Positions 17,517 through 60,475 of a stretch of 64,000 bases of DNA are shown piece after piece. Origin of the DNA: Leucoraja ocellata (taxonomy: Eukaryota); contig JAWMAR010001270.1 in assembly GCA_036785375.1 (NCBI GenBank), positions 62,001-126,000 of the forward strand. The letters are read 5' to 3'. Each line of letters starts with the position of its first letter. Position 1 is the stretch's first letter. The translations under genes and the position numbers were made by a program. The notes below the pieces were generated by a model that saw nothing but the letters and a program-made list of their open reading frames with translations, was not told the origin of the DNA and made no database searches.

Positions 17517-17708
17517 GTTTACACCTGCTTGGTATATCATGTTTCCCTTGAGGTGCCAGCAGCTCTCAGCTACACCGTCAAAAAAGGTAAGATTGTAATT
17601 ACTTGCAGACAAGAGCGGGTGTATATGTCCAACCTGGTTAGAATTTAAATATACAGCTGCTCAAACACGGGGACAATGGCTAGATACGACCCGTGTTTAT
17701 TCGTAATG

Positions 17709-18281
17709 GTGAGACCAAATCTGGAGTATGGTGTACAATTTTGGTCGCCCAATTATAGGAAGGATGTCAACAAAATAGAGAGAGTACAGAGGAGATTTAC
17801 TAGAATGTTGCCTGGGTTTCAACAACTAAGTTACAGAGATAGGTTGAATAAGTTAGGTCTTTATTCTCTGGAGCGCAGAAGGTTAAGGGGGGACTTGATA
17901 GAGGTCTTTAAAATGATGAGAGGGATAGACAGAGTTGTTGTGGACAAGCTTTTCCCTTTGAGAATAGGGAAGATTCAAACAAGAGGACATGACTTCAGAA
18001 TTAAGGGACAGAAGTTTAGGGGTAATATGAGGGGGAACTTCTTTACGCAGAGAGTGGTGGCGGTGTGGAATGAGCTCCCAGTGGAAGTGGTGGAGGCAGG
18101 TTTATTGGTATCATTTAAAAATAAATTGGATAGGCATATGGATGAGAAGGGAATGGAGGGTTATGGTATGAGTGCAGGCAGGTGGGACTAAGGGGCAAAA
18201 AAAAATTGTTCGGCATGGACTTGTAGGGCCGAGATGGCCTGTTTCCGTGCTGTAATTGTTATATGGTTATATGGTTATATG
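17709..18281 (+). mobile_element. CR1 family B 3' fragment (ATATGGTT tail), copy A only
   Basis: TSD GTAATG at 17703-17708 and 18282-18287; empty site at ~33617-33622. Confidence 0.9.
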
Positions 18282-21200: not shown

Positions 21201-21639
21201 TAATTTATTTCAAAATCAAGTATCCACAAGATTGACCAGGACAATTATCTGCAAAGTCTCTTCGCTAAGTACTATTCCTAATGACCACAGGGAATCGATT
21301 TCCCACAGTTTAGTAGCGAAGCATAAACCTCCGCATAAACCTACCAGATCTCCCATTACTAAACACTTTAACATCCCCATCAGAGTGGGGCTCAGTGCAA
21401 ATTGGAGGAAGAGCACCGACTATTTCGCTTGGGAAGCTTCCCCTACAGCGGTATGAATATTGACCTCCAACTTCAAGTAACCCAACTCTCAACCAATACT
21501 AATATTGGTGGCCAGTGGGGGGGGGGGGGGGGCTTTCTGGAGCGCTAGTATGGTGTTGTGGGCTGAAGGGACTGGTTTCCAGAGGGCTAGTATGGACACA
21601 GTGGACCGAATGGATTCTTGGGCTGGCGGCTCAGTCACA

Positions 21640-22711
21640 CATGCCTGTTGTGCTGGCAGCTCACTCACTCACGGCTGGTGGGCTGGCAGTTGACTCACTG
21701 CTATTCCTTGAAATTCCATTTCAAGCAGGGTGCAAGGCCATCAAATTCAAGTGCAGTTTCATACCATTTCAAGCAGGGTGCAAGGCCACTAAAGACAGCA
21801 GTCGTCACCTCTCCTACATCTTGCAGAGACTGAGCCACGCCCACACTTCTGGGTTTTATAGTCCCTCCCACCCCCCTCCCACCAGAAGGGGCGGGGCCTT
21901 CATGGCGTAATTAACAGGAGAGAGAATATGAACATTTTTTAAAACACTAATAATAACTCTTTTATTTTTCATCGATGGGAAAAATCCTCGGCACCTGATT
22001 CGTGGAGGGGTACTCTGAGTAAGATGTCCAAAGATCACAGCCGTACATGGTAGCGTTGTTTCTAAAATCAATACAAAGCGTAAACGGGAAGTGGTCAAGA
22101 TTAGACATTTATTATATAGAAGGCAAGGCAATTTTAATTGGGCAAGGCAACTTTAATTAGGCAAGGCAACTTTAATTAGGCAAGGCAGCTTTAATTAGAC
22201 AAGGCAACTTTAATTATGCAACTTTAATCAGGCAAGGCAACTTTAATTATGCAACTTTAATTAGGCAAGGCAACTTTAATTAGGCCACACAGCTTTAGCA
22301 TTTCCAAACCAAAGGCAGCACAGATTTAGCATTTCCAAACTATATTTTCAAACCACATTAAGGGCACTGACAGGTCAGTAAAACCACTCACAGTTTAGTA
22401 GACATGTGTTCAGTGTTATTTACAGCTCAGATTGAGACATTACCCTCTCGCGCCCCCATCTTGCAGAGACTGACTGAGGCACTCAACACTTCCGGGTTTT
22501 ATAGTCCCTTCAGGAGAGAGAATCTCAACATTTTAAAAACACTAATAACTCTTTTATTTTTAATCATGGGAAAAATCCTCTTGCCCTGCGCAGCGGAAGG
22601 GGACGGGGACTCTAAGTAAGATGGCCAAAAATCACAGCCATCAGTGGCAGTGTTTTTTCTAAAAATCAATATATAGAACGTGGTCAAGATCAGACTTTTA
22701 ATAATATAGAT
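21640..22711 (-). mobile_element. Putative composite non-autonomous Helitron-like element with an internal 19-bp minisatellite (AGGCAAGGCAACTTTAATT)n at ~22121-22285; duplicate at ~37770-38780
   Basis: Two related modules, each starting TCTATA on the minus strand (22710 and 22120). The 3' CTAG end was not clearly found. Confidence 0.45.
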
Positions 22712-24690
22712 ATATGTGTGTGTGTAAATGTATGTTTTATATACACACACTGGACTCTTTTGCCGTTTATTGTATTGCTCACAGTGTACTATCTTTACAT
22801 ATTCTGTTGTGCTGCTGGAATAAAGAATGTCGTTGTTCTATCTGGGACATATGACAATAAAACGCTCTTGACGTGTTTTCTTCTGAGACTGGCCGCCTAG
22901 CTGAAGAATTGGAAATTACGAGAAGCACGGATAGTGTTTTCGTCGGAACCTATGAAAGATAGGAAGGTATTGTTTTAACATCTAAGGTGTAGAGTTATGC
23001 TGGGCCAGGTTTTGACGCAGAAAGTGCCTAGAACGCATTACCAGGGATGCTGGAAGAAGAGAAGACAGCAGTTTTTAAAGAGTCTTTTCGATAGGCATAT
23101 AAATATGTACAAAGGAACTGCAAATGCTGGTTTAAACCGAAGATAGACACAAAAAGCTTGAGAACAGCGGGACAGGCAGCATCTCTGGAGAGATGGAATG
23201 GGTGACGTTTCGCGTCGAGACCCTTCTTCAGAAATATTGCAGGCATGGTGGGATGTGGATCATATGCAGATAGAGGAGATTAGTTTATCTTCGCATCATG
23301 TTCCGCGTAGACATACTAGTCCGAGAGACCCATTGCAGTGTTTAACTGTTGTATGTTTTATAATCTATTTGCTTTCGGAGACCTGAGTTCGATTCTCACT
23401 ACTTCATCTGCGAATTATAAATGATTATTTAAATTATTTTTTTTATATGCGTATACGCCGTCCTTGCTCTGCTCTTTTTTAGATGCCTCTTATTTGTTTC
23501 ATCAGGACGAAGCGTATGCCCTTCCGAATCAGATATCTTTTGGACTTCTGCTTGTAATTAGCAAACACGAATGTGTCCTTGCGAGCTTCTGCAACGTTTC
23601 TAAAAAAAAGATGCATCGAAACTAAGTTTTTTTCCATCGTCTACTGACTAACTAATCATCTACTGACTAACTAACTGACCACTGCATTTCTAGCTTGACA
23701 AAATAGAAATAACACACAGCATGAAAATAGAACTGTTCTCGTGAGTCTGCTGGCGACGTCATGGAAAGGCTTGCGGTCGAATGCTGTGCTTATCTGAAAC
23801 AAACAAGTCACGGACGGCTCGCGTTATCATCTTAGAAACTAAAGTGTAGAACAAGAAGTTTAATTTAAGACCATTGCTTAAAAGTCCACTTCCGTAAATG
23901 AAACATTTCTAAGGTTGTACTGTAATCTTCATTATTTCGCAGGAAGACACAAAATGCTGGAGTAACACAGTGGGACAGGCAGCATCACTGGAGAGAAGGA
24001 ATGGGAGACGTTTCGGGTTGAAACCCTTCTTTCCTTTATTGTTCTTTCCCTAATTATTTCGTGTTCGTTCTGGGAAAAAAATAAATACGTGGTAAACTTC
24101 ATCATGGCAATTAAATGGCTGATTTTTAAATATAACCATATAATATAACTATATAACAAGTACAGCACGGAAACAGGCCATCTCGGCCCTTCTAGTCCGT
24201 GCCGAACACTTACTCTCACCTAGTCCCATCTACCTGCACTCAGAACATACCCCTCCATTCATTTCCGTCCATATACCTGTTCCATCATTCTTGCCTGCTT
24301 GGAGTCCCGGGTATTTAATATGGTTGACGCGTTGTCACTTTTGCTCAGAAGAGCAGAGACGTGTGGTGCCTCTCCGGCATAGAGGAGCTGAAATATATCC
24401 GTGAGGGTTACTGGTGAGACTACCCCTGTGCACTTGACCTATGTGGGTGCGCTTAGTTCGTATTCCATACAACATTTGACAAGTTGTGATGATTCTATTG
24501 ATAATAAGAAGATATCGCCTGTAATTAGAGGCAACTTGCTGGCATTAACTATAAAGTTCATAGACTTTAGGGGCCGCTCGAATGGATAAGGAGAATGCAG
24601 ATGGACTGGCAATATGTCGCAATTGATGACCGTCGGAGATATGCATTTAGTGCATTTACATCTTCAGTCTGCATCTAAATTCCAGTTTTG

Positions 24691-24990
24691 TTTAATTTAG
24701 TTTAGAGATGCAGCGCGAAAACTGGCCCTTCGGCCCATCGGGTCCGCGCCGATAAGCGATCAACGCATATTAACACTATCCTACCCACGCTGGGGACATT
24801 TTTTACATTTACCAAGCCATTTACCTACATGCCTGCACGTCTTTGGAGTGTGGGAAGAAACCGGAGAAAGAAAGCCCACGCGGTCACGGGGAGAACGTAC
24901 AAACCCCGTACAGACAGTCCCCGTAGTCGGGATCGAACCCGGGTCCCCGGCGCTGCAAGTGCTGTTAGGCAGCAACTCTACCGCTGCGAT
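24691..24990 (-). mobile_element. tRNA-derived SINE (HE1/V-SINE-like); further copies at ~28175-28462, ~41418-41716 and ~42695-42988
   Basis: The minus strand has an A-box-like CGCAGCGGTAGAG, B-box GGTTCGATCCC, a CR1-like 3' end and a (CTAAA)n tail. Confidence 0.8.
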
Positions 24991-25514
24991 CACTTGGAAA
25001 CAAAGTTGTGGCAAGATAATTACTGGATAATGCTAGATTGCAGGTACTTTGTAATCTGAAATTAATCACGAAATATTGTGAATTCTAGGTGGTCGAGGAC
25101 AATCTGTGGAGAAAGAGAAACAGTAAATATTTCTATATTATAACAGAAATGATCAACTCGAGACGTTAGTTCTATTTCGCAATCTGACCTGTTGCAGGAT
25201 TCCAGTCAATTCCACCAAACGGTAGAAAACAGTATTTTCTTGTTAATGGCAATCCAACACATCTTGTCGAAAGGAGAATAAAAACGCAATCTAACCAATT
25301 ATTCCCATCAGGCATTGTTAATAATATTTGGAAAACGCATCTGCGATGACGTCATCAACAATGTAAGGGTCTAACGTTATGGAAAACAAAATTATGTTGC
25401 CCAAAGCTTTCCGCGCCTCCTGTTTACTAAATTAATCTAATTTAATGAAACTTTAAAAATATAGGAGCCATCTTGGAACCATTTAATCGAAGTTAAATTA
25501 ATAATGCAAACATG

Positions 25515-27040
25515 TAGTGTAGAAATAGCAGGGGCTATGACAGAAATATTTCAAATGTCATTAGAAACGGGAATAGTGCCGGAGGATTGGCGTACTGCGC
25601 ATGTTGTTCCATTGTTTAAAAAGGGGTCTAAGAGTAAACCTAGCAATTATAGACCTGTTAGTTTGACGTCAGTGGTGGGCAAATTAATGGAAAGAATACT
25701 TAGAGATAATATATATAAGCATCTGGATAAACAGGGTCTGATTAGGAACAGTCAACATGGATTTGTGCCTGGAAGGTCTTGTTTAACTAATCTTCTTGAA
25801 TTTTTTGAAGATGTTACACGGGAAATTGATGAGGGTAACGCAGTGGATGTTGTGTATATGGACTTCAGTAAGGCCTTTGACAAGGTTCCTCATGGAAGGT
25901 TGGTTAAGAAGGTTCAATGGTTGGGTATTAATGGTGGAGTAGCAAGATGCATTCAACAGTGGCTGAATGGGAGATGCCAGAGAGTAATGGTGGATGGTTG
26001 TTTGTCAGGTTGGAGGCCAGTGACGAGTGGGGTGCCACAGGGATCTGTGTTGGGTCCACTGTTGTTTGTCATGTACATCAATGATCTGGATGATGGTGTG
26101 GTAAATTGGATTAGTAAGTATGCAGATGATACTAAGATAGGTGGGGTTGCGGGTAATGAAGTAGAGTTTCAAAGTCTACAGAGAGATTTATGCCAGTTGG
26201 AAGAGTGGGCTGAAAGATGGCAGATGGAGTTTAATGCTGATAAGTGTGAGGTGCTACATCTTGGCAGGACAAATCAAAATAGGACGTACATGGTAAATGG
26301 TAGGGAATTGAAGAATGTAGGTGAACAGAGGGATCTGGGAATAACTGTGCACAGTTCCCTGAAAGTGGAATCTCATGTAGATAGGGTGGTAAAGAAAACT
26401 TTTGGTGTGCTGGCCTTTATAAATCAGAGCATTGAGTATAGAAGTTGGGATGTAATGTTAAAATTGTACAAGGCATTGGTGAGGCCAATTCTGGAGCATG
26501 GTGTACAATTTTGGTCGCCTAATTATAGGAAGGATGTCAACAAAATAGAGAGAGTACAGAGGATATTTACTAGAATGTTGCCTGGGTTTCAGCAACTAAG
26601 TTACAGAGAAAGGTTGAACAAGTTAGGGCTTTATTCTTTGGAGCGCAGAAGGTTAAGGGGGGACTTGATAGAGGTTTTTTAAATGATGAGAGGGATAGAC
26701 AGAGTTGACGTGGAAAAGCTTTTCCCACTGAGAGTAGGGAAGATTCAAACAAGGGGACATGACATGGGAATTAAGGGACTGAAGTTTAGGGGTAACATGA
26801 GGGGGAACTTCTTTACTCAGAGAGTGGTAGCTGTGTGGAATGAGCTTCCAGTGAAGGTGGTGGAGGCAGGTTCGTTTTTATCATTTAAAAATAAATTGGA
26901 TAGTTATATGGATGGGAAGGGAATGGAGGGTTATGGTCTGAGCGCAGGTATATGGGACTAGGGGAGATTATGTGTTCGGCACGGACTAGAAGGGTCGAGA
27001 TGCCCTGTTTCCGTGCTGTAATTGTTATATGGTTATATGG
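25515..27040 (+). mobile_element. CR1 family B, 5'-truncated RT (single nonsense TAA at 26680-26682)
   Basis: YADD, GVPQGSVLGP and ATATGGTT tail; absent from copy B. Confidence 0.95.
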
Positions 27041-27045
27041 TAATG

Positions 27046-27735
27046 ATTGAAGGTAGGCATACAGGTGCAGCAGGCAGTAAAGAAAGCGAATGGTATGTTG
27101 GCTTTCGTAGCAAAAGGATTTGAGTATAGGAGCAGGGAGGTTCTACTGCAGTTGTACAGGGTCTTGGTGATACCACACCTGGAGTATTGCGTACAGTTTT
27201 GGTCTCCAAATCTGAGGAAGGACATTATTGTCATAGAGGGAGTGCAGAGAAGGTTCACCAGACTGATTCCTGGGATGTCAGGACTGTCTTATGAAGAAAG
27301 ACTGGATAGACTTGGTTTATACTCTCTAGAATTTAGGAGATTGAGAGGGGATCTTATAGAAACTTACAAAATTCTTAAGGGGTTGGACAGGATAGATGCA
27401 GGAAGCTTGTTCCCGATGTTGGGGAAGTCCAGGACAAGGGGTCACAGCTTAAGGATAAGGGAGAAATCATTTAAAACCGAGATGAGGAGAACTTTTTTCA
27501 CACAGAGAGTGGTGAATCTCTGGTACTCTCTGCCACAGAGGGTAGTTGAGGCCAGTCCATTGGCTATATTTAAGAGGGAGTTAGATGTGGCCCTTGTGGC
27601 CAAGGGGATCAGAGGGTATGGAGAGAAGGCAGGTACGGGATACTGAGTTGGATGATCAGCCATGATCATATTGAATGGCGGTGCATGCTCGAAGGGCCGA
27701 ATGGCACCTAATTTCTATGTTTCTATGTTTCTATG
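27046..27735 (+). mobile_element. CR1 family A 3' fragment directly behind the family B copy
   Basis: Near-identical to 9751-10450; TTTCTATG tail. Confidence 0.95.
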
Positions 27736-29636
27736 ATCTTTTTCAGTATTCGCTTGCGGTGTCACAATATACTTTTCTATTAAACAATGGGAATATACCG
27801 ATGCATTTCCTCAAAATGTGGCAAATAAAATTCTTCAAATCCATTTTGTAAGATTATTATTGGTCCATTGTTGCAGAACAGCCCTTCGCTGACAGTAGCT
27901 TGCAAACATGCACAGAAATCCTTAATTTGTCAGATTTGCCGTGTACTGAGGTTTTCTCGAACTGCCGCTGGTTTCTTTACACTGCTGTCTTCACTAAAAA
28001 AGAAACAACGTGCCGCTTTAAATCTGAGTCCAGTCTTCATTATCTTCAAGACCAGCATCACAAACCGGAATGTTCTTGTTGCAGCTCTTCGTTTGAACGG
28101 TTAATGTGGACAGACTTAAAACCCGAAATTACGCAATCTTTACATGGAAGTTCAAATAGAAGCAGTTTTTTTAGCAATAGTTTAGAGATACAGCGCGGAA
28201 ACAGGCCCTTCGAGTCCGCGCCGACCAGCGATCACCCCGTACATTAGCACTATCCTGCACGCTAGGGACAATTTACAATCTTTACCGAAGCCAATCAACC
28301 TACGAACATGTACGTCTTTGGAATGTGGGCGGAAACCGGAGCGCCCAGAGAAAGCCCAAGCCAGTCATGGGACGAACGTACAAACTCCATACAGACAGCA
28401 CCCGCAGTCGGGATCGAACCCAGGTCTCTGGCGCTGTAAGTGCAGCAACTCTACTACTGCGATACGGTCCTGCCCGATTTCAGTAATTTAAAAAATATCC
28501 AGAGAATTACTGTGTATATTTGGAATATTGTGCCCTTCCATTGAACGGCACAAGGTCTCTAAATGAGGCGCATCAAACATTTAAATTACACGAAAATTAC
28601 TTAACCATTTGGTCTACAACAGGTTTCTGCTCGTGCAATTTAATGTGTGTTCTGAAGCCAAAATCATTGATTTGGGCAGAGGGATGTGAGTATAACCACG
28701 ATACGGGGAAAACATAAAGAGTTCAAACCGCCTCGCTCACCACTTTGGCTTCTTGCCTGTAGTCCAAACTTTAAGTGATCCTTAATTTCTACGATTTCTT
28801 GAAACAATACTTTGGAGGAAATTATAAGATTAACAGTTTGGTTTAAATCTCCCTAATTTATATTGGCCCATTCGATTAATTTACAGCCCCTATTCTCCTG
28901 TGTTGTGTGGATGTCAACAGCATAAGTTGATTGCTCTACTGGGCATTATCGGAAGAAAAAACATAGATTTCATTCATACGTTAGCTGTCGCGGCTTGGCG
29001 CCAATCTTCTGCTGGACTCCCCATAGAATATTGCTGCAATTGTGTTTATGAAAATAGTAGAAATATTAGTTAACAAAAACCAGCATGGAGATTTGGTTTT
29101 GTAGGAATAGCAACCGGAGTTAGTGATAAAGCGTCAGATGGAAACATAATCAATAGAAAGCTGCGGATGGCGATGGTGAGGGCTGAACAGGAAGAAACGA
29201 AAAGGGTGATTGTTGTTTGAATGTATATAATCGAAAGAGCGAAGGAGCACAACACACATTGGGAAGGGGGGGGGGGGGGGAGAGATTCAAGGGAAGGTGG
29301 GTGTCTACGTTTGTGCATCTAAATATTCACAAGCACTCCTTACCTTCTACGCGGAAACGATTTGTGACAATTAACTGAGTAGGCAGCTGATGCAAATTTA
29401 ATTCCGAGTAAAAATGTGGATGCTACGGGAGGAAGTTGTGAACATGTTTCAGGAAGTATTGGAAGGCTTTGTTACAATGGGAATGGGCCGAACTATGACC
29501 TCTCCCGCCGCACGAGCCACAGTCGTGGGATATATATTACGTCACGGTCACGTTTCATATATTTACTCATAATTTCCTTTTCCGCAGAGCAAGTTTTGAG
29601 TAAACTAACAACAAGTTGGCAATTTATTCTTGTAAT

Positions 29637-32600
29637 ATGTCGGTGAAAGTTAGAGTTTGGTCCATGGCTCTTCTGGTCATACTAACGCAGGGTATAGTTA
29701 AAATGTGTGCCATTTCTGGTCTAAGTATTATTTTACGAAAATTCGAGCTATTAGGTTCATCTATTTGGCCCTCGTGGGTTTATAGTTGTTTCGTGCTTTT
29801 CGACAGTTGGTTCCTGTTTTCTCTGTCCAGTGTTTACAAATGTTTCAATTGTTCTTGCATTTTTCCCGACAGCTACCGAAGTCTATCCGACCAGAGTGTC
29901 CCAATTCCCTGTCAACTTGGACGTTGGCGGCGGTGAACACGCTATCATGTATTGCAAATTTCCAATATCGAAAGGCGATATTGGCGTTAATTGGTGGAGG
30001 GACGGCATGAAGACATTCCTTGAACCGGACAGTAGAAAACAATTTACCATAGATTCTGGAAGCGGAACATTTACTTTCCAACATGTGCGTGTAGCTGACT
30101 CCGGCCTGTATTACTGTCAAGTAAAGTTCCAGCAGAAGGTTATCGGAAATGGAAGTGGCAGCCTGATCACCGTATTTGGTGAGTGTGTGTGTTAGGGAAA
30201 TAAGCAAGTTTCAGTTCTATGTCATTTGTAAAGTCTAGTCGGGAGGACAATGTGAAAAATCGCCTGTTGATAAATATCCAGTAATAACAATTTTAAATTA
30301 CAGGGACCAGTAATTCAAAATAAAACAAAGCACAATGGACATAACCAGCAGGTCGAGTCGCACTTGTGGGACGCGTGGGTATTGAGGGTTATTCTGTTCA
30401 TTGTACGATACTTTGCGAGACTCCTTTTCATTGCCGCTATGAATGGGCGCAGCCCATTCATTTAGCGGTCCCGAATTTTAAGCCAATCTCCCAGATGGAT
30501 TTATCGCTAAGAACGGGTAAATGCTGAGATGGAAGGAATTAATTCTGAGGTGTGGTTAGAAATGTTTTGCAATGAGATATTGAAATAATATTCCTGTTAG
30601 TTTGAGTGGTTGGAGTGTGATGTCCAGGTTTCTCATCACTAAGAAAAGAGAGTAGGAGCAATTTTAATACGTCGATGGTAGAGTCTGTCATGCCTCTATT
30701 CTACATCGACAGCTTTAGAACCTCATAAGACCAATGTGCTGCTGCAACCCAAGGACCTTGGTCTTCCAACATGTGGGACTCATCGCTGCTGATTCCAAGC
30801 TGACTTCAATGAAATCTTTTTTCTTTTTTTTGACATCGCTTGACACTAATTTTGTCAGGCATAACCTCAGTCTATTCAACCAATTTGGCAACGTACGGGG
30901 GGAAAAAAGAAGTAAACAACATCTCAAATGAAATTATTTAAAGTCCGGGAATAAACAGTAACATTTATTTCATCATTAAAGATTATCCTGATTAAGTGAA
31001 TTAAGTCAAGCTTTCTAAAGATTTGTAATAAACGGACAATGCAACCCAACAATCAACTCTCCGTCCAGTTAGACACCGGCTGCAGCTCGTACGGAAGGAG
31101 TTCGCGTTAATAAATGCCAAATATAGGGCCTTTTACGTGCAGACCTAAATGAGTAGAATCTGCACAGCGGGAAACAGAGCTTGTTATTTTCCATCGTTTG
31201 GCTTCTGCAAGCTATCATCATTAACGCCGATCTAACGTTGTCGATTCACTGCCGCCAAGTTGGCACAACAGATGGAACTGATTTGTATAGAGACACAAAA
31301 TGCTGGAGTAACTCAGCGGGGCAGGCAGCATCTCTGGGTAGAAGGAATGAGTGACGTTTGGGGTCGATACCCTTCTTCAAACCTCGATCCGAAACGTCAC
31401 CCATTCCTTCTCCGAAGAGATGTTGCCTGTCCCGCTGAGTTACTGCAACATATATTCGGTTTAAACCAGCATCTGCAGTTCTTTCCTACATACTGATATT
31501 GAATAAGTGCGCTCGTAAATTGCTTGTAATAGAAACCACGGTGTTTCACTATAAGCATTCAATGCGCGAGAAAGGTGTTCCAGCACTTGGTTCACATGCA
31601 GGTAAATGGTTGTGATCGGCATTTCAAACCCATATCTGGTTCTGGTTCTGGTTGATTACTGCGCAAACACGTGATAAGTGGTTATCTCCCGCATGTCGGA
31701 GTGAGTAGAGTAGAGTAGTGATTAAATGTTGAAGTGGGTGTTTTTGACCAGGGTGAGAAGATTTAATCCATATACTACTTAAAGTGCTAACGGGATTCAT
31801 CATTAATCTTCATGTATAACCGCTTCCTGTCACCACACTATACGAATCTGTTATATTTCGATTATGATGGCTCCATTTCTTTTGCAACATATGAATGATC
31901 CGAACATGGCCACTTTTAAATAATCACGGCAGGCTTCTGGCAAAAGCTTTCGCGCGATACCGGGGAACGTCCATTCAGAACAGAGTTTATTTTGGAACTC
32001 CTTAAATTCTGTTGGCACTCCTTAAATTCACCCTCTTTGTATGTTGGCGGAGTTCGTCCGGGTGTCCGCTAGGAAAGGGAGTATAAATGAACGACAAACT
32101 GGGAAGTTTAAATATTAAATAATTTGGTCTTGCCAAATACGACTCGGTGGCGAGATAAAATGTAAATATTTACAATGAAATGGAAAGCGAACACCCGATA
32201 TTTTTTTTTCTTTGCTTAAGATCCCCCAACTCCCTTGACAATTGTTCCTGCTGAAGGACATGGCTCTCCACGGAAACTTGTGTGCAAAACTGACGCCTTT
32301 TATCCGGAGAAATTAGAAATATTCTGGCTAAGAAATAACGAGGAAATTCGCACTGGAATCGAAACTGTGAAAAATCAGAGCGAAGAAGGATTGTTTGTGG
32401 CTACTAGTTCTTTGGAAATAACGCAGCCTGGGGAGGGCAAAGATATTTACACCTGTCTGGTATCACATGTCTCCCTGAAGGTGGCGGCCAGTTTCAGTTA
32501 TACCCTGGGCCAAGGTAAGACTGGAGCCAGTTACACATGATATTGGGGCGGTAGATCAAATTCGATCAGATTAATAACTGGACAGCTTTCCGTACACGGA

Positions 32601-35258
32601 GCGAAAGGTAAATGTGGCTCGCATTTGTTCGCATGAAAGCAACACTTGTATGCTGTATAAAATGAATTGCAGTCCATCAGTTCTTGTAAGGAAATCCGTG
32701 TGAGATGAATTGACAAACTGAATTGATATAGTGTTTGTAATGAGCAAAAACGTCCTGGGATATGCGGTATTCCGCTGTCTGGTGAAATATATGAAGATAA
32801 AACCTAAATTCCGTTTAACGTTAGTAAGCAGCTTTCCACACATGGGCACAATACAACGGCAATTGTTTGTCCTGTGGATTCCATTACTAACTTCCACCTG
32901 GTGCCGCATGATATACCTTCCAAACTTTCCGATGTGGGTATTAAAATGCACCTACGAAATGATTTACCTTCTTGACTGCCGTTTGTATATTTGTTCTGAA
33001 ATGTATAAATTCTTTACAGTTTCTTAATTTTCAGTTGCTTCATCAGGAATTGATCGCAAACAGATTATCGTATATGCAGTAGGTGGATCAGTACTTTTAA
33101 TTCTGATTATAATCGTGATAAGACTCAGTTTAAAGATGTGGCCCGGTAAGAATCTTGATAATTTACAATAATCATTTCTATGGTTAAAAACAGCATGGAT
33201 ATGTCAATGGTGTTTGCTCAAAGAGATTTCTGAAGCCGGTTTTGATATATGTCTGTGATAATATATGATGGATCTTCAAATTCAATTATATCAGCTTGGA
33301 ATTGGATTATTCAATTATCACCTTTGCATATATTTTCAAATATAAGGAATTATTCAAACATCCAGTGTGATGGATAATGAGTGCAATGGAAGATTACGAT
33401 TTTGAAGAAAAAACAACTGTGGTTTTCTGTGGCAATGAACAAAACCAATCATCTCCTTATTTTTACATTACATTGCTGTTTTGACATGGACACAATTCCT
33501 TATAAACCATCACAATGTTAAAGTTTCAGTTAAGATTTAGGTCCAGTGGGCGCAACATCACGAAAGGGTACATAGGAACATAGAAAATAGGTGCAGGAGT
33601 AGGCCCGTGTTTATTCGTAATGAGAGAACAATGTTTCAAAATCACAAATCAATCATGGAGCAAGAAGCTCAAAGGCTAATAAACCATTGAGGTGTTCTGT
33701 GATATCGCTAAATTCCTAAATGTTTATAAATTTCTATATATTATATCATTCACGTTTTTCCTGTTTCTCTCTTGATCCATAAGTTGCAGATAAAAACCTA
33801 ATTATCGGATGCGCAGTGGGTGTGTTGGCAGTTTTAGTTTTGGTCATTATCTTGATAAGACTCCAAGTAAAGGCACAAAATGGTGAGAATTATACATATT
33901 TTACACTATTCTCGGTATTAATCATAATGGTGGTTAAAAAACCAAGGGCAGTAAATGCTATTCGATTGCAAAACAATAAAATAATTGAGAATAAAGCTGA
34001 CCATTAACAATGACAAAAATAAAACTTAAGATATAAATCTTACATCTTCCCATGTCAATGAATGTTTCAATCGTCGTAGATTTTTGTTGTCTCCATCGGT
34101 TACTGAATTCACCGAAATTCGGTAGTGGTGCCGAAGCCGAGGGATATTAAGCAGAGTGCAGTGATAACACTTTCAATCTACCAAGTTTGGAATGGGGTCA
34201 AGGAAAGAGCGTTCACGCCCGGCCCTGCTTTCACCAATCTTTCCACCACTACGCACTTGAAGCACAAGAACAGACACCATTGTATGCAGATGCCGAGGCG
34301 TGTGTTCAGCTCTGGTTGAACAACTTCTAATCTTGTGTGTGGTCTCGATAAGAAGAGTACGCAATGTTGGATGATTTCAGCCCAAGGACAATATGAACAA
34401 CTCTTATTTCCTAGCGACCGTTGATTTCCTGACAATTGTGCAGGCAGGTTCAACGTAGAATTTGCCCCATGGGAATATAGGTTAAATTGTCTATCAGCGA
34501 ATCTTAAAATTGTACTTTGCATTATCAGCATATTTAATACGTAATATTAAATGTTTGCTACTTTAAATCTACTATTCGTCTGCCCCCTTAAGCAGATTCC
34601 ATTTACGTTCATACAAATGATCGGCAATAACGAAGAAAGCTAATGTTGTTCTGTGGGCCAGGAATGATTAGTAGCACCGAAGGTCAACACTAAGTGAAAT
34701 CAGGGAAAGAAAATTAATGAAGAATGGCCAAAAAATATCTGATAACAGTATCCAATTGGCAGATCACTGGAAGATCGCTAACTCAACCAAACAAAACTAA
34801 AACACAGAATAATCCATCCCAGCAGTAGCGCGCAATACAGTTTTAGAATAAACTACTGTTTTCTCAACTCATTAGAAGCAGTTCCCCAACTTGCAGTAAA
34901 GCACTTTTAATCCCGTGCCCGTGTATCATTAAAGGTGACGGATAGCAATTCCATATTTGTTTGCACGTCGGTGCAGTCTCATGGATTAGTATGAATCCTG
35001 AAGTGTATATACATTCTCTATGAGACTGGTAGTATTTTGTTTCAAAATCGTATTCTTTGTGCCACCAGAGGGTAATTGACTAATGGCCGATATAAATTAC
35101 TTTCACAGACTAAAGATGATAGATTCTACGTTATATCATGTCGATTTGCAGTTACTCAACTCCAATCAGCAGTAACATTTAACCAGAAAGAGGAACATGT
35201 ACCTTATGCAGATGGAAATGTTTTAAAGAAGGAGCGAAGCTGGAAATCGAAGCTGTAG
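29637..35258 (+). CDS. G3: chimeric VJ-C1 receptor: L 29637-29691, V 29873-30178, C1 32221-32514, TM-a 33047-33145, TM-b 33784-33882 (G2-derived), G2-derived terminal exon 35109-35258; probably tailless
   Basis: L, V, C1 and both TM exons are open with canonical splice sites. Sequence after 33604 is a copy of the G2 3' half. The actual 3' splicing is uncertain. Confidence 0.75.
29873..30178 (+). CDS. G3 V-J Ig exon
   Basis: MYC...VNWW...DSGLYYC...IGNGSGSLITVF; cgacag| and G|gtgagt; 306 nt. Confidence 0.95.
32221..32514 (+). CDS. G3 C1 exon
   Basis: LVCKTDAFYPEKLEIFW...YTCLVSHVSL; ttaag| and G|gtaaga. Confidence 0.95.
33047..33145 (+). CDS. G3 TM-a exon GIDRKQIIVYAVGGSVLLILIIIVIRLSLKMWP
   Basis: 99 nt, phase 1-1; paralog of 47521-47619. 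Confidence 0.85.
33784..33882 (+). CDS. G3 TM-b exon VADKNLIIGCAVGVLAVLVLVIILIRLQVKAQN (duplicate of G2 TM)
   Basis: 99 nt, ataag| and G|gtgaga; near-identical to 18398-18496. Confidence 0.75.
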
Positions 35259-38200
35259 ACTGTGAATAATTGCAGGCGGAAATATTGCTACTTTCTGATC
35301 ATTGCAGCCAAGCTAATGAACTCCCATGGTAACAATCGTGGGAGCTGCAGGTCGTTTTCACCTGCATTGAGGCAATGTTTTGGTGTAAGTGACTATCATC
35401 TAACAAGCATCCAACGCTTCCATTTCTGAAAGCAGGGATGAAAGTGCCAGTTTGCATTTGTTGTAAATTTTAAAAATCGTGTTTGTTTATTTTACTTCTG
35501 TTCTCAAATGTGATTAATTTCGCTGGAGCTTTGTGAAGAAACTATGGCCACGTCCGTTCGTGATAACATGTCACTTAATGATGTCTGATTTAAAAAAACC
35601 CGCCGATTATTCAGTTGTGCAACCAATATATTTTCCCTTCATTAAATTCCATGCTTTTTCAATGCACCTGAGCCTTTGTCCTCTCATTTGTTTCGAAATG
35701 CACTAACGTCAACACAAACCAGAGAAGGAAATCCGAAGAAACCCATCAACCAATCAAGTGCACTACCATTGAATACACTTGTAATGAAATGGAATTAGTC
35801 AGTCACGTGATGATAGCCTGGCGGAGCAAAGCGCCTCAGTGACGTCAGTGGCATAGCCACCTACAGTGGAACAGAAGATGTAAGTTCTGCACGGATGGAT
35901 CCCGTCTTCCATTTGCCCAGACATTACTGTTGGTAACTTCATATGTTCCACGTAAAAAGCAAAGCAAATCAGTACGTGCATCAGCATGTAGTGACTGGAA
36001 GCACCAGCAGACCTTGGCGGACTGAGCGCTCGTGTTCTGAGATACCCCCCCCCCCCCCCCCACCACCCCCCCCCCCCCCCAACCCCACCCGGAGACACAC
36101 ACACAGACACACACACACACACAGACGCGCGCATACACACACACCCTTCCCTTTTTACATATACAACCGCCGCCTTCTCGACATGACAATTTCACCCATC
36201 ATCTGCATCCACCTATCACTGGATCGGTTTCGTCCCACCCCAGGTATCTTCCAGCTTAATCCACATTATTCTGAAGAAGGGTTCTAATCTGACACGTCGT
36301 CTGTCCATTCCCTCCGCAGATGCTGCATCGCCTGCTGAGTTCCTCCACCGCTTTGCTGTTTTTCTCAAGATCCCAGCAATGGCAGTCTCAAATATCTTAA
36401 TGTGTAGTAACCGTCCATGCAGCTCCCTGCGGACTGTGTTCTGGATGCTGAAACAGTGCGCCCACTTGTCACTGTATTCATCCTGTACGTCCCATTATGA
36501 AATCAATCAGCAAAATAGATGGAAAACTAATGTCATTTAATCAAATACGATTGATTCGTATTGGATGAATTATGATTTTCAACAGATCCTGATAATTAAT
36601 TACGAAAAATATATGGTGTCACAAGAGACTGAAGGCGCTGGAATCTTGAACTGCAAGAAATCAGCAGGCAGGCAAAATCTGTTGAGGCAAATGGAGAGAT
36701 GACCTTGCGGATTGGATCCCGTCTTCAGACTGACCTTCAGAAATGTATGTCACTTGGTCACTTACATAGGCAGATTTCTGTTTACATTAAATCCATTGTG
36801 CTGTATTCAACTAAAGGTGTGAATTAAATCGTCCACACTGGGTGGTGTGGCAACTTACTAATATCAAGACTGTGCACAAATTGCAAACGGTTTATGATTC
36901 TTTCCACTGATGCACCTATGACTTAGTGAAATAATGTGAATGCCAGAGTGTGCCAAGGGCCATATGTATAATCTTGCTCTTGGGATGATGTAGCAATTTA
37001 TTCGTGTTTGCCTATCCCTTCTCGCTTCTCAATAGCGTGATTTCCCCTTATCTGAAATTATAATCTACTGCTCTTGTGAATAGTTTAATAACATTAACTC
37101 TTGTGAATGAGTTTAACTTGTCAGAAGGTCATAAGTGATAGGAATAGAATTAGGCCATTCGTCCCATCAAGTCTACTCCGCCATTCAATCATGGGTGATC
37201 TATCTCTCCCTCCTAACTCCACTCTCCTGTCATCTCCCCATAACCCCTGACACCTGAATTTCCATGAACTTGTGCCACCGACTCAAGCAGCGGGCCGCAC
37301 CTGCAAATCTGGATAATTTATTTCAAAATCAACTATCCACAAGATTGACCAGGCCAATTAACTGCAAATTCTCTTCGCTAGGTACTATTCCTAATGACCA
37401 CAGGAAATCGATTTCCCACAGTTTAGGAGCGAAGCATAAACCTCCACATAAACCTACCAGATCTCCCATTACTAAACACTTTAACACCCCCATCAGCGTG
37501 GGGCTCAGTGCAAATTGGAGGAAGAGCACCGACTATTTCGCTTGGGAAGCTTACCCCACAGCGGTATGAATATTGACCTCCAACTTCAAGTAACCCACCA
37601 CTCAACAAATACCAATATTGGTGGCCAATGGGGTGGGGGGCTTTCTGGAGCGCTAGTATGGTGTTGTGGTCTGAAGGGACTGGTTTCCAGAGGGCTAGTA
37701 TGGACATAGTGGACCGAATGGATTCTTGGGCTGGCGGCTTGGTCACACATGCCTGTTGTGCTGGCAGCTCACTCACTCACGGCTGGTGGGCTGGCAGTTG
37801 ACTCACTGCTATTCCTTGAAATTCCATTTCAAGCAGGGTGCAAGGCCACCAAATTCAAGTGCAGTTTCATACCATTTCAAGCAGGGTGCAAGGCCACTAA
37901 AGACAGCAGTCGTGACCTCTCCCTCCTCCATCTTGCAGAGACTGAGCCACGCCCACACTTCTGGGTTTTATAGTCCCTCCCACCCCCCTCCCACCAGAAG
38001 GGGCGTCGCCTTCATGGCGTGATTAACAGGCGAGAGAATATCAACATTTTTTTAAACACTAATAATAACTCTTTTATTTTTCATTAATGGGAAAAATCCT
38101 CGGCACCTGATTAGTGGAGGGGTACTCTGAGTAAGATGTCCAAAAATCACAGCCGTACGTGGTAGCATTGTTTCTAAAATCAATACAAAGCGTAAACGGG

Positions 38201-40214
38201 AAGTGGTCAAGATTAGACTTTTATTATATAGAAGGCAAGGCAACTTTAATTAGGCAAGGCAACTTTAATTAGGCAAGGCAGCTTTAATTAGACAAGGTAA
38301 CTTTAATTATGCAACTTTAATTAGGCAAGGCAACTTTAATTAGGCAACACGGCTTTAGCATTTCCAACCCAAAGGCAGCACAGATTTAGCATTTCCAAAC
38401 TATATTTTCAAACCACATTAAGGGCACTGCCAGGTCAGTAAAATCACTCACAGTTTAGTAGACATGTTTTCAGTTTTATTTACAGTTCAGATTGAGAGAC
38501 ATTACCCACTCGCTCCCCCATCTTGCAGAGACTGACTGAGGCACTCAACACTTCCGGGTTTCATAGTCCCTTCAGGAGAGAGAATCTCAACATTTTTAAA
38601 ACACTAATAACTCCTTTATTTTTAATCGATGGGAAAAATCCTCTTGTCCTGCGCAGCGGAAGGGGACTCTAAGTAAGATGGCCAAAAATCACAGCCATCA
38701 GTGGCAGCGTTTTTTTTCTAAAAATCAATATACAGAACAACAGGAAGTGGTCAAGATCAGACTTTTAGTAATATAGATATATGTGTGTGTGTAAATGTAT
38801 GTTATATATACACACTGGACTTTTTTTTCCCGTTTATAGTTTTGCTCACAGTGTACTATGTTTACATATTCTGTTGTGCTGCTGCAAATAAGAATGCCGT
38901 AGTTCTATCTGTGACATATGACAATAAAACGCTCCGCTTGATTTCTTATGAGACTGGCCACCTAGCTGAAGAATTGGAAATTACGAGAGGCACGGATAGT
39001 GTTGTTCGTCAGAACCTATGAAAGATAGGAAGGTATTGCTTTAACGTCAGAGTTTGAGTGTTATCGGCCAGTTTTTGACGCGGAAAGGGCCTGGAACGCG
39101 TTACCACGGGTGCTGGAAGAAGATAAGACAGCAGTTTTTGAAGGGTCTTTTCAATAGGCATATAAATATGTACAAAGGAACTGCAGATGCTGCTTTAAAT
39201 CTAAGATAGACACACAAAGCTTGAGAACTCAGCGGGACAGGCAGCATCTCTGGAGAAATGGAATGGGTGACGTTTCGCGTCGAGACCCTTCTTCAGAAAT
39301 AAGGCATGGTGGGATGTGGATCATATGCAAATAGAGGAGATTAGTTTATCTTCGCATCATGTTCCGCGTAGACATACTAGTCCGAGAGACCCGTTGCAGT
39401 GTTTAACTGTTGTATGTGTTATGATCTATTTGCTTTCGGAGACGAAAGCAAATAGCGGCAAATAGCGTTCGATTCTCACTACTTCAACTGCGAATTATAA
39501 ATCTGCATATTTAAATTAAATTATGTATATGCGTATACGCAGTCCTTGTTATGCGCTTTTTAGATGCCTCTTATTTGTTCCATTGGGACGAAGCGTTATG
39601 CCCTCCGAATCAGATTTAATTTTAGACTTCTGCTTGTAATTCGCAAACACGAATGTGTCCATGCGAGCTTCTGCAACGTTTCTATAAAAAAGATGGAACG
39701 GAACTAAGTTTTTTCCATCGTCTACTGACTAACTAATCATCTACTGACTAACTAACTGACCACTGCATTTCTAGCTTGACAAAATAGAAATAACACACAG
39801 CATGAGAATAGAACTGTTCTCGCGAGTCTGCTGGCGACGTCATGGAAAGGCTTGCGGTCGAATGCTGTGCCTATCTGAAACAAACAAGTCACCGACAGCT
39901 CGCGTTATCACCTTGGAAACTTAAGTGTAGAACAAGAAGTTTAATTTAAGACCATTTCTTAAAAGTCTGCCTCCGGCAATGATACATTTCTAAGGTTGTA
40001 CTGTAATCTTCATTATTTGGCAGGAAGGCACACAATGCTGGAGTAACACAGCGGGACAGGCAGCATCACTGGAGAGAAGGAATGGGTGACCTTTCGGGTT
40101 GAGACCCTTCTTTCCTTTATTGGTCTTTCCTTAATTATTTCGTGTTCGTTCTGGGGAAAAAATAAATACGAGGTAAACTTCTTCGTGGCAATTAAATGGC
40201 TGATTTTTAAATGT

Positions 40215-40648
40215 AACTATATAATATAACCATATAACAATTTACAGCACGGAAACAGGCCATCTCGGCCCTTCTAGTCCGTGCCGAACACTTACTCTCA
40301 CCTAGTCCCATCTACCTGCACTCAGACCATAACCCTCCATTCCTTTGCCGTCCATATACCTATCCAATTTATTTTTAAATGATAAAATCGAACCTGCCTC
40401 CACCACTTCCACTGGAAGCTCATTCCACACAGCTACCACTCTCTGAGTAAAGAAGTTCCCCCTCATGTTACCCCTAAACCTTTGTCCCTTAATTCTCAAA
40501 TCATGTCCTCTTGTTTGAATCTTCGCTACTCTCAATGGGAAAAGCTTATCTACGTCAACTCTGTCTATCCCTCTCATAATTTTAAAGACCTATCAAGTCC
40601 CCCCCTTAACCTTCTGCGCTCCAAAGAATAAAGAGCAATCTTGTTCAA
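40215..40648 (-). mobile_element. CR1 family B 3' fragment (shortened counterpart at 24131-24278)
   Basis: ORF 40302-40577(-) matches the family B C-terminus. Confidence 0.9.
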
Positions 40649-40753
40649 TGTTACCCTTTCTCTGAGAGCATGGGACGATGTGCCATTACCTGACGCATTA
40701 TAAGTCAAGATGAAACGAAATGATTCAAAAATATTATCTGTTTCATCATTCTT

Positions 40754-41013
40754 TACTCAGAGAGTGGTAGCTGTGTGGTCTTTACTCAGAGAGTGATAGC
40801 TGTGTGGAATGAGCTTCCAGTGAAGGTGGTGGAGGCAGGTTCGTTTTTATCATTTAAAAATAAATTGGATAGTTATATGGATGGGAAGGGAATGGAGGGT
40901 TATGGTCTGAGCGCAGGTATATGGGACTAGGGGAGATTTTGTGTTCGGCACGGACTAGAAGGGTCGAGATGGCCTGTTTCCGTGCTGTAATTGTTATATG
41001 GTTATATGGTTAT
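40754..41013 (+). mobile_element. CR1 family B 3' fragment, copy B only
   Basis: TSD ATTCTT at 40748-40753 and 41014-41019; 29-bp tandem duplication at its 5' end. Confidence 0.9.
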
Positions 41014-44000
41014 ATTCTTGACTGCTTGGAGTCCCGGGTATTTCATATGGTTGACGCGTTGTCACTTTTGCTCAGAAGAGCAGAGACGTGTGGTGCCTCT
41101 CCGGCATAGAGGAGCTGAAATATATCCATGAGGATTACTGGAAAGACTACCCCTGTGCACTTGACCTATGTGGGTGCGCTTAGTACGTACTCCATACAAC
41201 ATTTGACAAGTTGTGATGATTGTATTTACAAAAAGAAGATATCGCCTGTAATTAGAGGCAACTTGCTGGCAATAACTATAAAGTTCATAGACTTTAGGGG
41301 GCGCTCGAATGGATAAGGATAATGCAGATTGATTGGCATAATGTCGCAATTGATGACCTTCGGGGATATGCGTTTAATGCATTTACATTTTCAGTCTACA
41401 TCTAAATTCCAGTTTTGTTTAATTTAGTTTAGAGATGCAGCACGAAAACTGGCCCTTCGGCCCACCGGGTCCGCGCCGATAAGCGATCACCGCATATTAA
41501 CACTATCCTACCCACGCTAGGGACATGTTTTACATTTACCAAGCCATTTACCTACATGCCTGCACGTCTTTGGAGTGTGGGAAGAAACCGGAGAAAGAAA
41601 GCCCACGCGGTCACGGGGAGAACGTACAAACCCCGTACAGACAGTCCCCGTAGTCGGGATCGAACCCGGGTCCCCGGCGCTGCAAGTGCTGTTAGGCAGC
41701 AACTCTACCGCTGCGATCACTTGGAAAAGTTCTGGCAAGATAATTACTGGATAATGCTAGATTGCAGATACTTTGAAATCTGAAATTAATCACGAAATAT
41801 TGTGAATTCTAGGTCGTCGAGGACAATCTGTGGAGAAAGAGAAACAGTACATATTTCTATATTATCACAGAAATGATCAACTCGAGACGTTAGTTCTATT
41901 TCGCAATCTGACCTGTTGCAGGATTCCAGTCAATTCCACCAAACGGGAGAAAACAGTATTTTCTTGTTAATGGCAATCCATCACATCTTGTCGAAAGGAG
42001 AATAAAAACGCAATCTAAACAATTATTCCCATCAGACATTGTTAATAATATTTGGAAAACGCATCTGCGATGAGGTCATCAACAATGTAAGGGTCTAACG
42101 TTATGGAAAGCAAAATTATGTTGCCCAAAGCTTTCCGCGCCTGCTGTTTACTAAATGAATCCAATTTAATGAAACTTTAAAAATATAGGAGCCATCTTGG
42201 AAAAATTTAATCGAAGTTAAATTAATAATGCAAACATGATCTTTTTCAGTATTCGCTTGCGGTATCACAATATTTTTTTCTATTAAACAATGGGAATATA
42301 CCGATGCATTTCCTCAAAATGTGACAAATAAAATGTCTTCAAATCCATTTTGTAAGATTATTATTGGCCCATTATTGCAGAACAGCCCATCGCTGACAGT
42401 AGCTTGTAAACATGCACAGAAATCCTTAATTTGTCAGATTTGCCGTGTACTGAGGTTTTCTCGAACTGCCGCTGGTTTCTTTACACTGCTGTCTTCACTA
42501 AACAAGAAACAACGTGCCGCTTTAAATCTGAGTCCAGTCTTCATTATCTTCAAGACCAGCATCACAAACCGGAATGTTCTTGTTGCAGCTCTTCGTTTGA
42601 ACGGTTAATGTGGACAGACTTAAAACCCGAACATTACGCAATCTTTACATGGAAGTTCAAATAGAAGCCATTTACAGAAACAGTTTTTTTAGCAATAGTT
42701 TAGAGATACAGCGCGGAAACAGGCCCTTCGACCCACAGAGTCCGCGCCGACCAGCGATCACCCCGTACATTAGCACTATCCTGCACGCTAGGGACAATTT
42801 ACAATCTTTACCGAAGCCAATCAACCTACGAACATGTACGTCTTTGGAATGTGGGCGGAAACCGGAGCGCCCAGAGAAAACCCAAGCCAGTCACGGGACG
42901 AACGCACAGACTCCATACAGACAGCACCCGCAGTCGGGATCGAACCCAGGTCTCTGGCGCTGTAAGTGCAGCAACTTTACCGCTGCGATACGGTCCTGCC
43001 CGATTTCAGTAATTTAAAAAATATCCAGAGAATTACTGTGTATATTTGGAATATTATGTCCTTCCATTGAACGGCACAAGGTATCTAAGTGAGGCGCATC
43101 AAACATTTAAATTACACGAAAATTTCTTAACCATTTGGTCTACAACAGGTTTCCGCTCGTGCAATTTATTGTGTGTTCTGAAGCCAAAATCATTGATTTG
43201 TGCAGAGGAATGTGAGTATAACCAAGATACGGGGAAAACATAAAGAGTTCAAACCGCCTCGCTCACAACGTTGGCTTCTTGCCTGTAGTCCAAACTTTAA
43301 GTAATCCTTCATTTCTACGATTTTTAAAACAATACTTTGGAGGAAATTATAAGATTAACAGTTTGGTTTAAATCTCCCTAATTTATATTGGCCCATTCGA
43401 TTAATTTACAGCCCCTATTCTCCTGTGTTGTGTGGATGTCAACAGCATAAGTTGATTGCTCTACTGGGCATTATCGGAAGAAAAAACATAGATTTCATTC
43501 ATACGTTAGCTGTCGCGGCTTGGCGCCAATTTTCTGCTGGACTCCCCATAGAATATTGCTGCAATGGTGTTTATGTAAATAGTAGAAATATTAGTTAACA
43601 AAAACCAGCATGGAGATTTGGTTTTGTAGGAATAGCAACCGGAGTTAGTGTTAAAAACGTCAGATGGAAACATAATCAATAGAAAGCTGCGGATGGCGAT
43701 GGTGAGGGCTGAACAGGAAGAGACGAAAAGGGTGATTGTTGCTTGAATGTATATAATCGAAAGAGCGAAAGAGCACAACACACATTGGGAAGGGGGGGAG
43801 ATTCAAGGGAAGGTGGGTGTCTACGTTTGTGCATCTAAATATTCACAAGCACTCCTTACCTTCTACGCGGAACGATTTGTGACAATTAACTGAGTAGGCA
43901 GCTGATGCATATTTAATTCCGAGTAAAAATCTCGATGCTACGGGAGGAGGTTGTGAACACGTTTCAGGAAGTATTGGAAAGCTTTGTTACAATGGGAATG

Positions 44001-44149
44001 GGCCGAACTATGACCTCTCCCGCCGCACGAGCCACAGTCGTGGGATATATTACGTCACGGTCACGTTTCATATATTTACTCATAATTTCCTTTTCCGCAG
44101 AGCAAGTTTTGAGTAAACTAACAACAAGTTGGCAATTTATTCTTGTAAC

Positions 44150-60421: not shown

Positions 60422-60475
60422 GTAAGCCGGGAGGCATTTAACGTAGACTTCAGCCTGCCGAGAAATACAATCCGA

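What the first reader, a model, noticed from the sequence alone, without database searches (positions are those of the whole stretch)
33570..33605. A 36-bp CR1 tail sits exactly at the junction of a ~15 kb tandem duplication
Seen: copy A ends ...cgaaagggtaca (33572, equivalent to 48080) and copy B starts cccgtgtttattc (33604, equivalent to 17690). Between them lies acataggaacatagaaaataggtgcaggagtaggcc, the reverse complement of the CR1 family A 3' terminus. It shares ACA and CC microhomologies with the flanks and is absent at both outer ends. Inference: an aborted TPRT or LINE-patched break created the duplication, in effect a giant target-site duplication. This is a route for receptor gene birth that differs from recombination between pre-existing repeats.
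Basis: partly seen in the sequence, partly recalled or inferred. Interest (0 to 1): 0.8.

Follow-up and report, generated by a model that had tools for sequence, protein, structure and literature searches.

The report
Retrotransposon tail bridging a gene duplication
In a cartilaginous fish, a 36-base scrap of a jumping element sits exactly where two 15-kilobase tandem copies meet, so a botched insertion probably made the duplication and with it a tail-less copy of an inhibitory immune receptor gene; this mechanism is known from tumours and cultured cells, and here it appears in inherited DNA.

Summary
Copies A (17690-33572) and B (33604-48080) differ at 506 of 12,838 aligned bases (3.9%). They are joined by 36 nt of a LINE 3' tail with 3-nt and 2-nt overlaps.

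It is unlikely: that element is absent from 3 of 4 related organisms, one only 1.4% diverged in the flanks, and it differs from the junction at a subfamily-type base and in tail length.

Best reading (0.62): CR1 reverse transcriptase primed at the downstream breakpoint, copied about 33 nt, and the cDNA joined DNA 14.5 kb upstream. This is the known retrotransposon-bridged duplication of tumours and cell lines, here inherited and from a non-L1 element. It is not a literal 15-kb staggered cut. Main rival (0.17): a later insertion overwrote an older junction.

The duplicate is partial: leader-V-C1-TM without the ITIM tail exons. Reads across the junction were not tested, and the junction's age is uncertain.

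The parts
33570..33605 (-). 36-nt 3' terminus of LINE (CR1-type) family A bridging the junction; short 8-mer tail at the left, 5'-truncated end at the right; 3-nt overlap with copy A end, 2-nt overlap with copy B start
17690..33572 (.). Duplicate copy A (15,883 nt)
33604..48080 (.). Duplicate copy B (14,477 nt; probably close to the ancestral unit length)
17297..17519 (-). Neighbouring family A element (223 nt, TSD about 4-5 nt) inside the C1 exon of partial gene W, 347 nt outside the left breakpoint; rival donor; absent in X6, X7, X14
17707..18286 (+). Family B LINE fragment inserted in copy A only, 6-nt TSD, 17 nt inside the left breakpoint; absent in X14
25512..27732 (+). Copy-A-only composite insertion: family B fragment followed directly by a family A fragment (shows family A active after the copies split)
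29637..29691 (+). X1 leader exon (open, GT donor)
29873..30178 (+). X1 V-set exon (open)
32221..32514 (+). X1 C1-set exon (open)
33035..33145 (+). X1 transmembrane exon; last X exon before the junction
33784..33882 (+). Copied W transmembrane exon in copy B, in phase with the X1 TM donor (A copy at 18398-18496)
35109..35258 (+). Copied W last cytoplasmic exon, no ITIM-like motif (A copy at 19710-19859)
44150..47619 (+). X2 leader (44150-44204), V (44398-44703), C1 (46695-46988), TM (47509-47619)
48265..52006 (+). Single-copy X cytoplasmic exons outside the duplication: 48265-48308, 50913-51023, 51869-52006 (two ITIM-like motifs in the last)
17060..17588 (+). C1 exon of V-less partial gene W, frameshifted and interrupted by the neighbouring LINE; the left breakpoint lies about 100 nt into the following intron

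Best explanation
A retrotransposon-bridged tandem duplication in the germline. The + strand reads in the order of synthesis. A free 3' end at the downstream breakpoint (48080; an endonuclease nick or an existing break, which cannot be told apart) paired through 3 nt with the 8-mer tail of a CR1-type RNA. Reverse transcription stopped after about 33 nt. The cDNA end paired through 2 nt with DNA about 14.5 kb upstream (17690) on the same chromatid, the sister or the homologue, and synthesis or ligation from there repeated the interval. Shown: the anatomy, no CR1 at the ancestral left breakpoint, family activity of matching age. Inferred: RNA template, one event, repair route. Result: gene X1, an open leader-V-C1-TM copy cut off from the ITIM-bearing tail exons, which could splice in frame to the copied W TM exon and ITIM-less tail (inferred, no RNA evidence).
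For: The fragment begins in the 3' tail repeat and is 5'-truncated, with the tail at the end where first-strand synthesis would prime. Overlaps of 3 and 2 nt: joint chance 0.010, same range as ordinary insertions here (1-3 nt overlaps at 17297, 17707, 27735) and as ZfL2-2 (about 80% 3' and 50% 5' microhomology, PMC2666801 passages). A T precedes the tail in 4 of 4 young copies and at the junction (weak; the two old copies were not counted). Three long family A copies carry 1.5-2.1% private changes over 678 columns, bracketing the 2.0% per lineage of the duplication. One contig each of X6, X7, X14 crosses 17517-17702/17708 without a gap, so no CR1 lay at the ancestral left breakpoint; none is seen beyond 48080 in the window. 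Precedent: 14 of 152 retrotransposon-bridged rearrangements in tumours are duplications (10.1101/2024.08.27.596794); 1-10 kb duplications treated as large TSDs (10.1101/2024.12.14.628481); one 1,228-bp TSD among 25 ZfL2-2 inserts.
Against: Geometry and microhomology do not separate reverse transcription from DNA template switching. A same-orientation family tail lies 347 nt outside the left end (chance about 0.025 for this geometry, 0.17 under a looser definition). Deletions of 51, about 650 and 732 nt separate the copies if the B-only stretches are ancestral, one starting inside a LINE, so later trimming of a longer element is realistic. The junction reads AAAATA where 4 of 4 young copies read AAATTA, so the matching source subfamily is not shown active at that time. 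The right breakpoint was not examined in relatives. The junction's age is unsure: X6 differs from the window by 14/985 left of the breakpoint but 20/501 right of it (p=0.003) and X4 shows only copy-A letters at 18372, 18612, 18753, so part of the 3.9% may be old allelic divergence (the tool warns that holes prove nothing).
Confidence: 0.62

Rival explanations
1. The duplication formed first by another route. A CR1 later inserted near the junction and either its own target-site deletion or a later deletion removed most of it together with the original junction.
For: Family A and B insertions postdate the copies' split (17707, 25512-27732). Three B-only stretches of 51-732 nt look like deletions from A, one with an end inside a LINE. 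Long target-site truncations are known (343-50,187 bp in Ku70-null cells).
Against: Needs an insertion close to the junction plus a deletion spanning it. My rough rate estimate (inference, not a tool result) is about 1% or less per duplication. Long truncations were not seen in 25 wild-type ZfL2-2 inserts.
Confidence: 0.17
2. A stalled fork or broken end copied 33 nt from a distant genomic CR1 tail (DNA template; MMBIR or polymerase-theta type patch) and then switched to 17690.
For: Same order of synthesis and same microhomologies; these tails are very abundant (summed contig depth of 1e7 over 17283-17456).
Against: Tails are a small share of the sequence (6 other family A or related tails in 64 kb), so a random distant donor starting exactly in the tail is unlikely; templated patches usually come from nearby (own knowledge).
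Confidence: 0.08
3. The 36 nt were copied from the neighbouring element at 17307-17342: either copy B once began there and later lost 347 nt, or one template switch hopped 17307 to 17690.
For: Same family, same orientation, collinear, 34/36 identical, 347 nt from the breakpoint; two mismatches fit a 3.9% age (P>=2 = 0.41); its own 4/221 differences from the family majority do not exclude that age.
Against: The neighbour is absent from X6, X7, X14 (contiguous record coordinates across 17293-17516), and X6 flanks differ from the window by only 1.4% (CI 0.8-2.4) against 3.9% (CI 3.6-4.3) between the copies, so it is younger than the A/B split. If the junction is instead young, two mismatches are unlikely (P 0.03-0.09). 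One mismatch is the base shared with both older copies (54180, 62863), and the junction tail is one unit shorter than all four young tails.
Confidence: 0.07
4. Classical unequal recombination between two pre-existing CR1 copies, with later loss of the remnants.
For: LINE copies are dense in the window.
Against: No CR1 at 17690 in three relatives, none at 48081; the junction piece is 36 nt, not a full hybrid element.
Confidence: 0.03
5. Assembly artefact: two divergent haplotypes placed in tandem.
For: Junction reads were not examined; X4 holds only 0.39 of the junction region's words and shows mainly copy-A letters.
Against: No gap or N in the window; the junction has a base-precise 36-nt insert with overlaps on both sides, which an assembler would not invent; X4 and X7 each show a second, lower-depth contig with copy-B-like letters over 18444-18661 (ambiguous).
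Confidence: 0.03

Closest known systems
Retrotransposon-mediated rearrangement, duplication type (somatic L1; PMC7058536 Fig. 7a-b; 10.1101/2024.08.27.596794)
   Same: Two distant breakpoints in duplication orientation bridged by one short 5'-truncated retro-insertion with its 3' tail at one joint and no local TSD.
   Different: Germline and old enough for 3.9% divergence between copies; CR1-type element with an 8-mer tail, not L1 poly(A); no copy-number, read or endonuclease-motif proof; 14.5 kb against 22.6 Mb in the PCAWG case.
Long TSDs / 1-10 kb L1-associated tandem duplications (10.1101/2024.12.14.628481 section 12; ZfL2-2 1,228-bp TSD in PMC2666801)
   Same: Insert flanked by a kilobase-scale direct repeat; break-induced replication proposed; L2/CR1-like element with 3' microhomology.
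   Different: Those are de novo events in cultured or tumour cells; this one is about 1.5 times the upper size named for L1 and 12 times the ZfL2-2 case, inherited, and carries exons.
NAHR between interspersed repeats (L1-L1, Alu-Alu flanked SVs; PMC12350158 passages)
   Same: A repeat at the junction of a copy-number change.
   Different: No homologous repeat at the ancestral left breakpoint in three relatives or at the right outer end.
Elasmobranch V-C1-TM receptors auto-annotated 'SIRP-like' or 'NCR3LG1-like' (e.g. P0035, P0155, P0170)
   Same: Leader-V-C1-TM-tail layout, tyrosine motifs in the last exon, clustered paralogues; V 48-58% and C1 68-71% identical to the best hits.
   Different: X1 lacks its own tail exons; the names are automatic and no functional study was found.

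Membership tests
Retrotransposon-mediated duplication | Two distant breakpoints in tandem-duplication orientation bridged by a retroelement piece | tested here: met
Retrotransposon-mediated duplication | Element 3' tail present at one joint | tested here: met
   (about 1.75 tail units, one mismatch)
Retrotransposon-mediated duplication | 5'-truncated end joined by short microhomology, no local TSD | tested here: met
   2-nt overlap; flanks map to 48080 and 17690
Retrotransposon-mediated duplication | Endonuclease target motif at the 3' joint | tested here: inconclusive
   T before the tail in 4 of 4 young copies and at the junction; too few sites, no family motif known to me
Retrotransposon-mediated duplication | Element absent from the ancestral allele at both breakpoints | tested here: inconclusive
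   Left: absent in X6, X7, X14. Right: only the window's own outer end
Retrotransposon-mediated duplication | Insertion and duplication arose in one event | not testable with these tools
   Needs junction sequences from several lineages; family age matches
Retrotransposon-mediated duplication | Reads span the junction and depth doubles | not tested
NAHR between repeats | Homologous repeat at both ancestral breakpoints | tested here: not met
CR1-clade LINE | RT-coding element ending in a short tandem-repeat tail | tested here: met
   PF00078 in 8609-10348, continuous with the 8-mer tail at 10427-10451
CR1-clade LINE | Placement in CR1 rather than L2 by RT phylogeny or repeat library | not tested
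Elasmobranch V-C1 ITIM receptor | V-set, C1-set, TM and ITIM-bearing tail | tested here: met
   For X2 with 48265-52006
Elasmobranch V-C1 ITIM receptor | Same, for the new copy X1 | tested here: not met
   No X tail exon inside the unit; the W last exon has no ITIM-like motif
SIRP (mammalian sense) | V-C1-C1 ectodomain, CD47 binding, synteny (recalled) | tested here: not met
   One C1 exon per gene; binding and synteny not tested

The most novel reading that the evidence does not exclude
In cartilaginous fish, whose genomes carry very many active CR1-type LINEs, aborted reverse transcription is a regular source of inherited 10-20 kb tandem duplications, and in immune receptor clusters it produces partial copies that split the ligand-binding exons from the inhibitory tail, seeding paired-receptor or decoy genes without any pre-existing homology. 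X1 would be an expressed example, possibly with a W-derived second TM and tail.
Probability: 0.15. Interest if true: 0.72.

Novelty: new variant of a known kind. Interest (0 to 1): 0.42.

Why it matters
Retrotransposon-bridged duplications are documented as somatic or cell-culture events of L1 (and once for a fish L2-clade LINE). An inherited case from a CR1-type element that left an open receptor gene would show the route reaches the germline and can be retained. It also gives a cheap genome-wide test: count short LINE 3' termini at tandem-duplication junctions in shark and ray assemblies. The product, an ITIM-less copy beside its inhibitory parent, is the kind of step by which paired receptors are thought to arise (own knowledge). 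As one locus without read or RNA support it is a good lead, not a demonstration. I found no germline CR1 case in searches (listings only; open-access library).

Tried and rejected
No whole genome was held, so the family's tail variants could not be counted genome-wide. A metagenome scan for the tail motif found 0 matches. The lay did not list the diagnostic position 17324 among the rows shown (165 rows hidden), so whether AAAATA marks a subfamily rests on 2 older window copies and on my recall. I laid 4 of the 24 listed runs. Two word-based protein searches with the V exon found nothing; no close orthologue of X1/X2 appeared among 201 fetched proteins (best V identity 58%), so the duplication could not be dated from proteins. 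PDB hits were generic Ig domains. No V or leader exon for W was found in 6440-17050; W's first two tail exons were not found. Earlier-findings look-ups returned nothing. The search for a paper on this receptor family returned 0. X6 and X7 contigs both stop 41-42 letters past 17708 while X14 runs through, which hints at a second copy in those two, but depths and letters do not settle it; not used as evidence. The MAFFT global alignment misplaced the first block; one search gives the divergence used. Rejected: a literal pair of nicks 15 kb apart (local TSDs 3-6 nt; clade peak 3-5 bp). Selection on X1 is not shown: V dN 0.059, dS 0.107; C1 0.018, 0.029. bioRxiv supplements were closed and may list further duplication cases.

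Full report
Observation. A self-comparison of the window shows a direct duplication in four collinear blocks. Copy A is 17690-33572 and copy B 33604-48080; block-wise alignment gives 506 differences in 12,838 bases, 3.9% (CI 3.6-4.3). Each copy has private segments: A-only 17707-18286 (6-nt TSD) and 25512-27732; B-only 51, 732 and about 650 nt. The 36 nt at 33570-33605 match the reverse complement of the 3' end of LINE family A at 34 of 36 positions in three copies. The overlaps with the flanks are exactly 3 and 2 nt; random joints reach both in 1.0% of 200,000 trials. The long family A copy codes for a reverse transcriptase (PF00078) and ends in an 8-mer repeat.

A 223-nt family A element in the same orientation lies at 17297-17519, its matching 36 nt ending 347 nt before the left breakpoint. 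It interrupts the C1 exon of a V-less partial gene, W. This offered a simpler story: the junction is a trimmed copy of the neighbour. In X6, X7 and X14 a single contig joins 17292 to 17517 with contiguous record coordinates, so the neighbour is absent in 3 of 4. In X4 a contig runs 25 letters into the tail, below the tool's 31-letter bridging rule but consistent with presence. The flanks differ from the window by 14/985 in X6, 41/945 in X7, 54/979 in X14 and about 0.7% in X4. The neighbour is therefore younger than about 1.4% divergence (upper CI 2.4%), while the copies differ by 3.9%. Within the window, all four young family A tails read AAATTA and have 21-28 nt of repeat before it; the junction reads AAAATA with 14 nt, sharing the A with both older copies.

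Results against. The junction itself was not in the stretch laid. X6 differs from copy A by 20/501 right of the breakpoint but 14/985 left of it (p=0.003) and shows one version only, roughly equidistant from A and B. X4 shows only copy-A letters at 18372, 18612 and 18753 and holds 0.39 of the words of 31600-35700. So these relatives may be single-copy and some of the 3.9% may be old allelic divergence, which would make the junction younger and weaken the dating. On the other side, X4 and X7 each have a second, lower-depth contig with B-like letters over 18444-18661, and X6 and X7 contigs branch just past the breakpoint where X14 does not. If the junction is young, two mismatches to the neighbour become unlikely (P 0.03-0.09), so the neighbour rival stays weak either way.

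Mechanism. On the + strand the order is target end, tail, truncated element, upstream site: the order of first-strand synthesis. The 3-nt tail overlap and 2-nt 5' overlap match ordinary insertions in this window and ZfL2-2 inserts (PMC2666801, passages). Three long family A copies have 1.5-2.1% private changes, against 2.0% per lineage for the duplication, so the family was active at about that time. I give 0.62 to reverse transcription primed at 48080 with the cDNA joining 17690; whether the primer was an endonuclease nick or an existing break cannot be told. A literal staggered cut is rejected: L2/CR1-clade TSDs peak at 3-5 bp (PMC4245944, passages). Overwriting of an older junction by a later insertion plus deletion (0.17) cannot be excluded, because sizeable deletions did occur here. 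A distant DNA-templated patch (0.08), the neighbour (0.07), NAHR (0.03) and misassembly (0.03) follow.

Gene consequence. The window holds a cluster of leader-V-C1-TM-tail Ig receptors whose closest named relatives are from rays, sawfish and sharks, auto-annotated SIRP-like or NCR3LG1-like. The unit carries W's TM and last tail exon, then X's leader, V, C1 and TM. The right breakpoint falls in X's TM-to-tail intron, 185 nt before the first tail exon (48265-48308); the other tail exons, with two ITIM-like motifs, are single-copy. X1 thus has four open exons with canonical splice sites but no tail of its own; its TM donor is in phase with the copied W TM exon, and W's last exon has no ITIM-like motif. 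The V exons differ at 21 of 303 bases, more than the background (p=0.01), 13 codons non-synonymously, but selection and expression are not shown.

Comparison with the literature. L1-bridged tandem duplications are described in tumours (PMC7058536, passages; 14 of 152 bridges in 10.1101/2024.08.27.596794, passages) and in L1-induced clones, where 1-10 kb duplications are called large TSDs (10.1101/2024.12.14.628481, passages and section 12). PMC12350158, PMC12227049 and PMC10249811 were seen as passages and gave no matching case. Other papers were seen as search listings only. The mechanism is therefore known; an inherited, CR1-type, exon-carrying case did not turn up.

Verdict. Real feature, probably a germline LINE-bridged duplication, a new variant of a known kind; single locus, junction reads and expression untested. 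Interest 0.42.

Noticed in passing
window 17060-19859: W is a C1-TM-tail cassette with no V or leader found, directly after gene 1's last exon (14890-15024). Its C1 exon is frameshifted in an A-run at 17213 and LINE-interrupted here, but X6, X7, X14 have 4 fewer A and no LINE, so it may be an intact alternative cassette in relatives.
   Followed up: partly
window 25512-27732: Two LINE fragments of different families lie back to back at one target site in copy A only: possible template switch between two RNAs or insertion into a tail.
   Followed up: no
window 40224-41015: Inverted family B piece, about 100 nt of other sequence, a 29-nt tandem repeat, then a forward family B 3' end; copy A has a 9-nt filler in place of about 650 nt of it. 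Resembles a twin-priming product later deleted in A.
   Followed up: partly
window 58378-63820: Fifth gene has an in-frame stop in its V exon and two TM-like exons (about 62390 and 63700); its C1 exon is 98% identical to unnamed protein P0201.
   Followed up: no
window 29873-30178 and 44398-44703: V exons diverge 6.9% against 2.0% for C1 and 3.9% background, with clustered amino-acid changes (codons 63-68, 86-88).
   Followed up: partly
window 16500-19100, run X6: Divergence from the window jumps from 1.4% to 4.0% across the left breakpoint, suggesting recombination between old haplotypes near it.
   Followed up: partly
window 18806-18950: Unannotated high-copy repeat (summed contig depth 1e5-1e6 in all four runs) in W's post-TM intron.
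   Followed up: no
window 8609-10451: Young family A copy with a 580-codon open RT-containing frame inside gene 1's tail region.
   Followed up: partly
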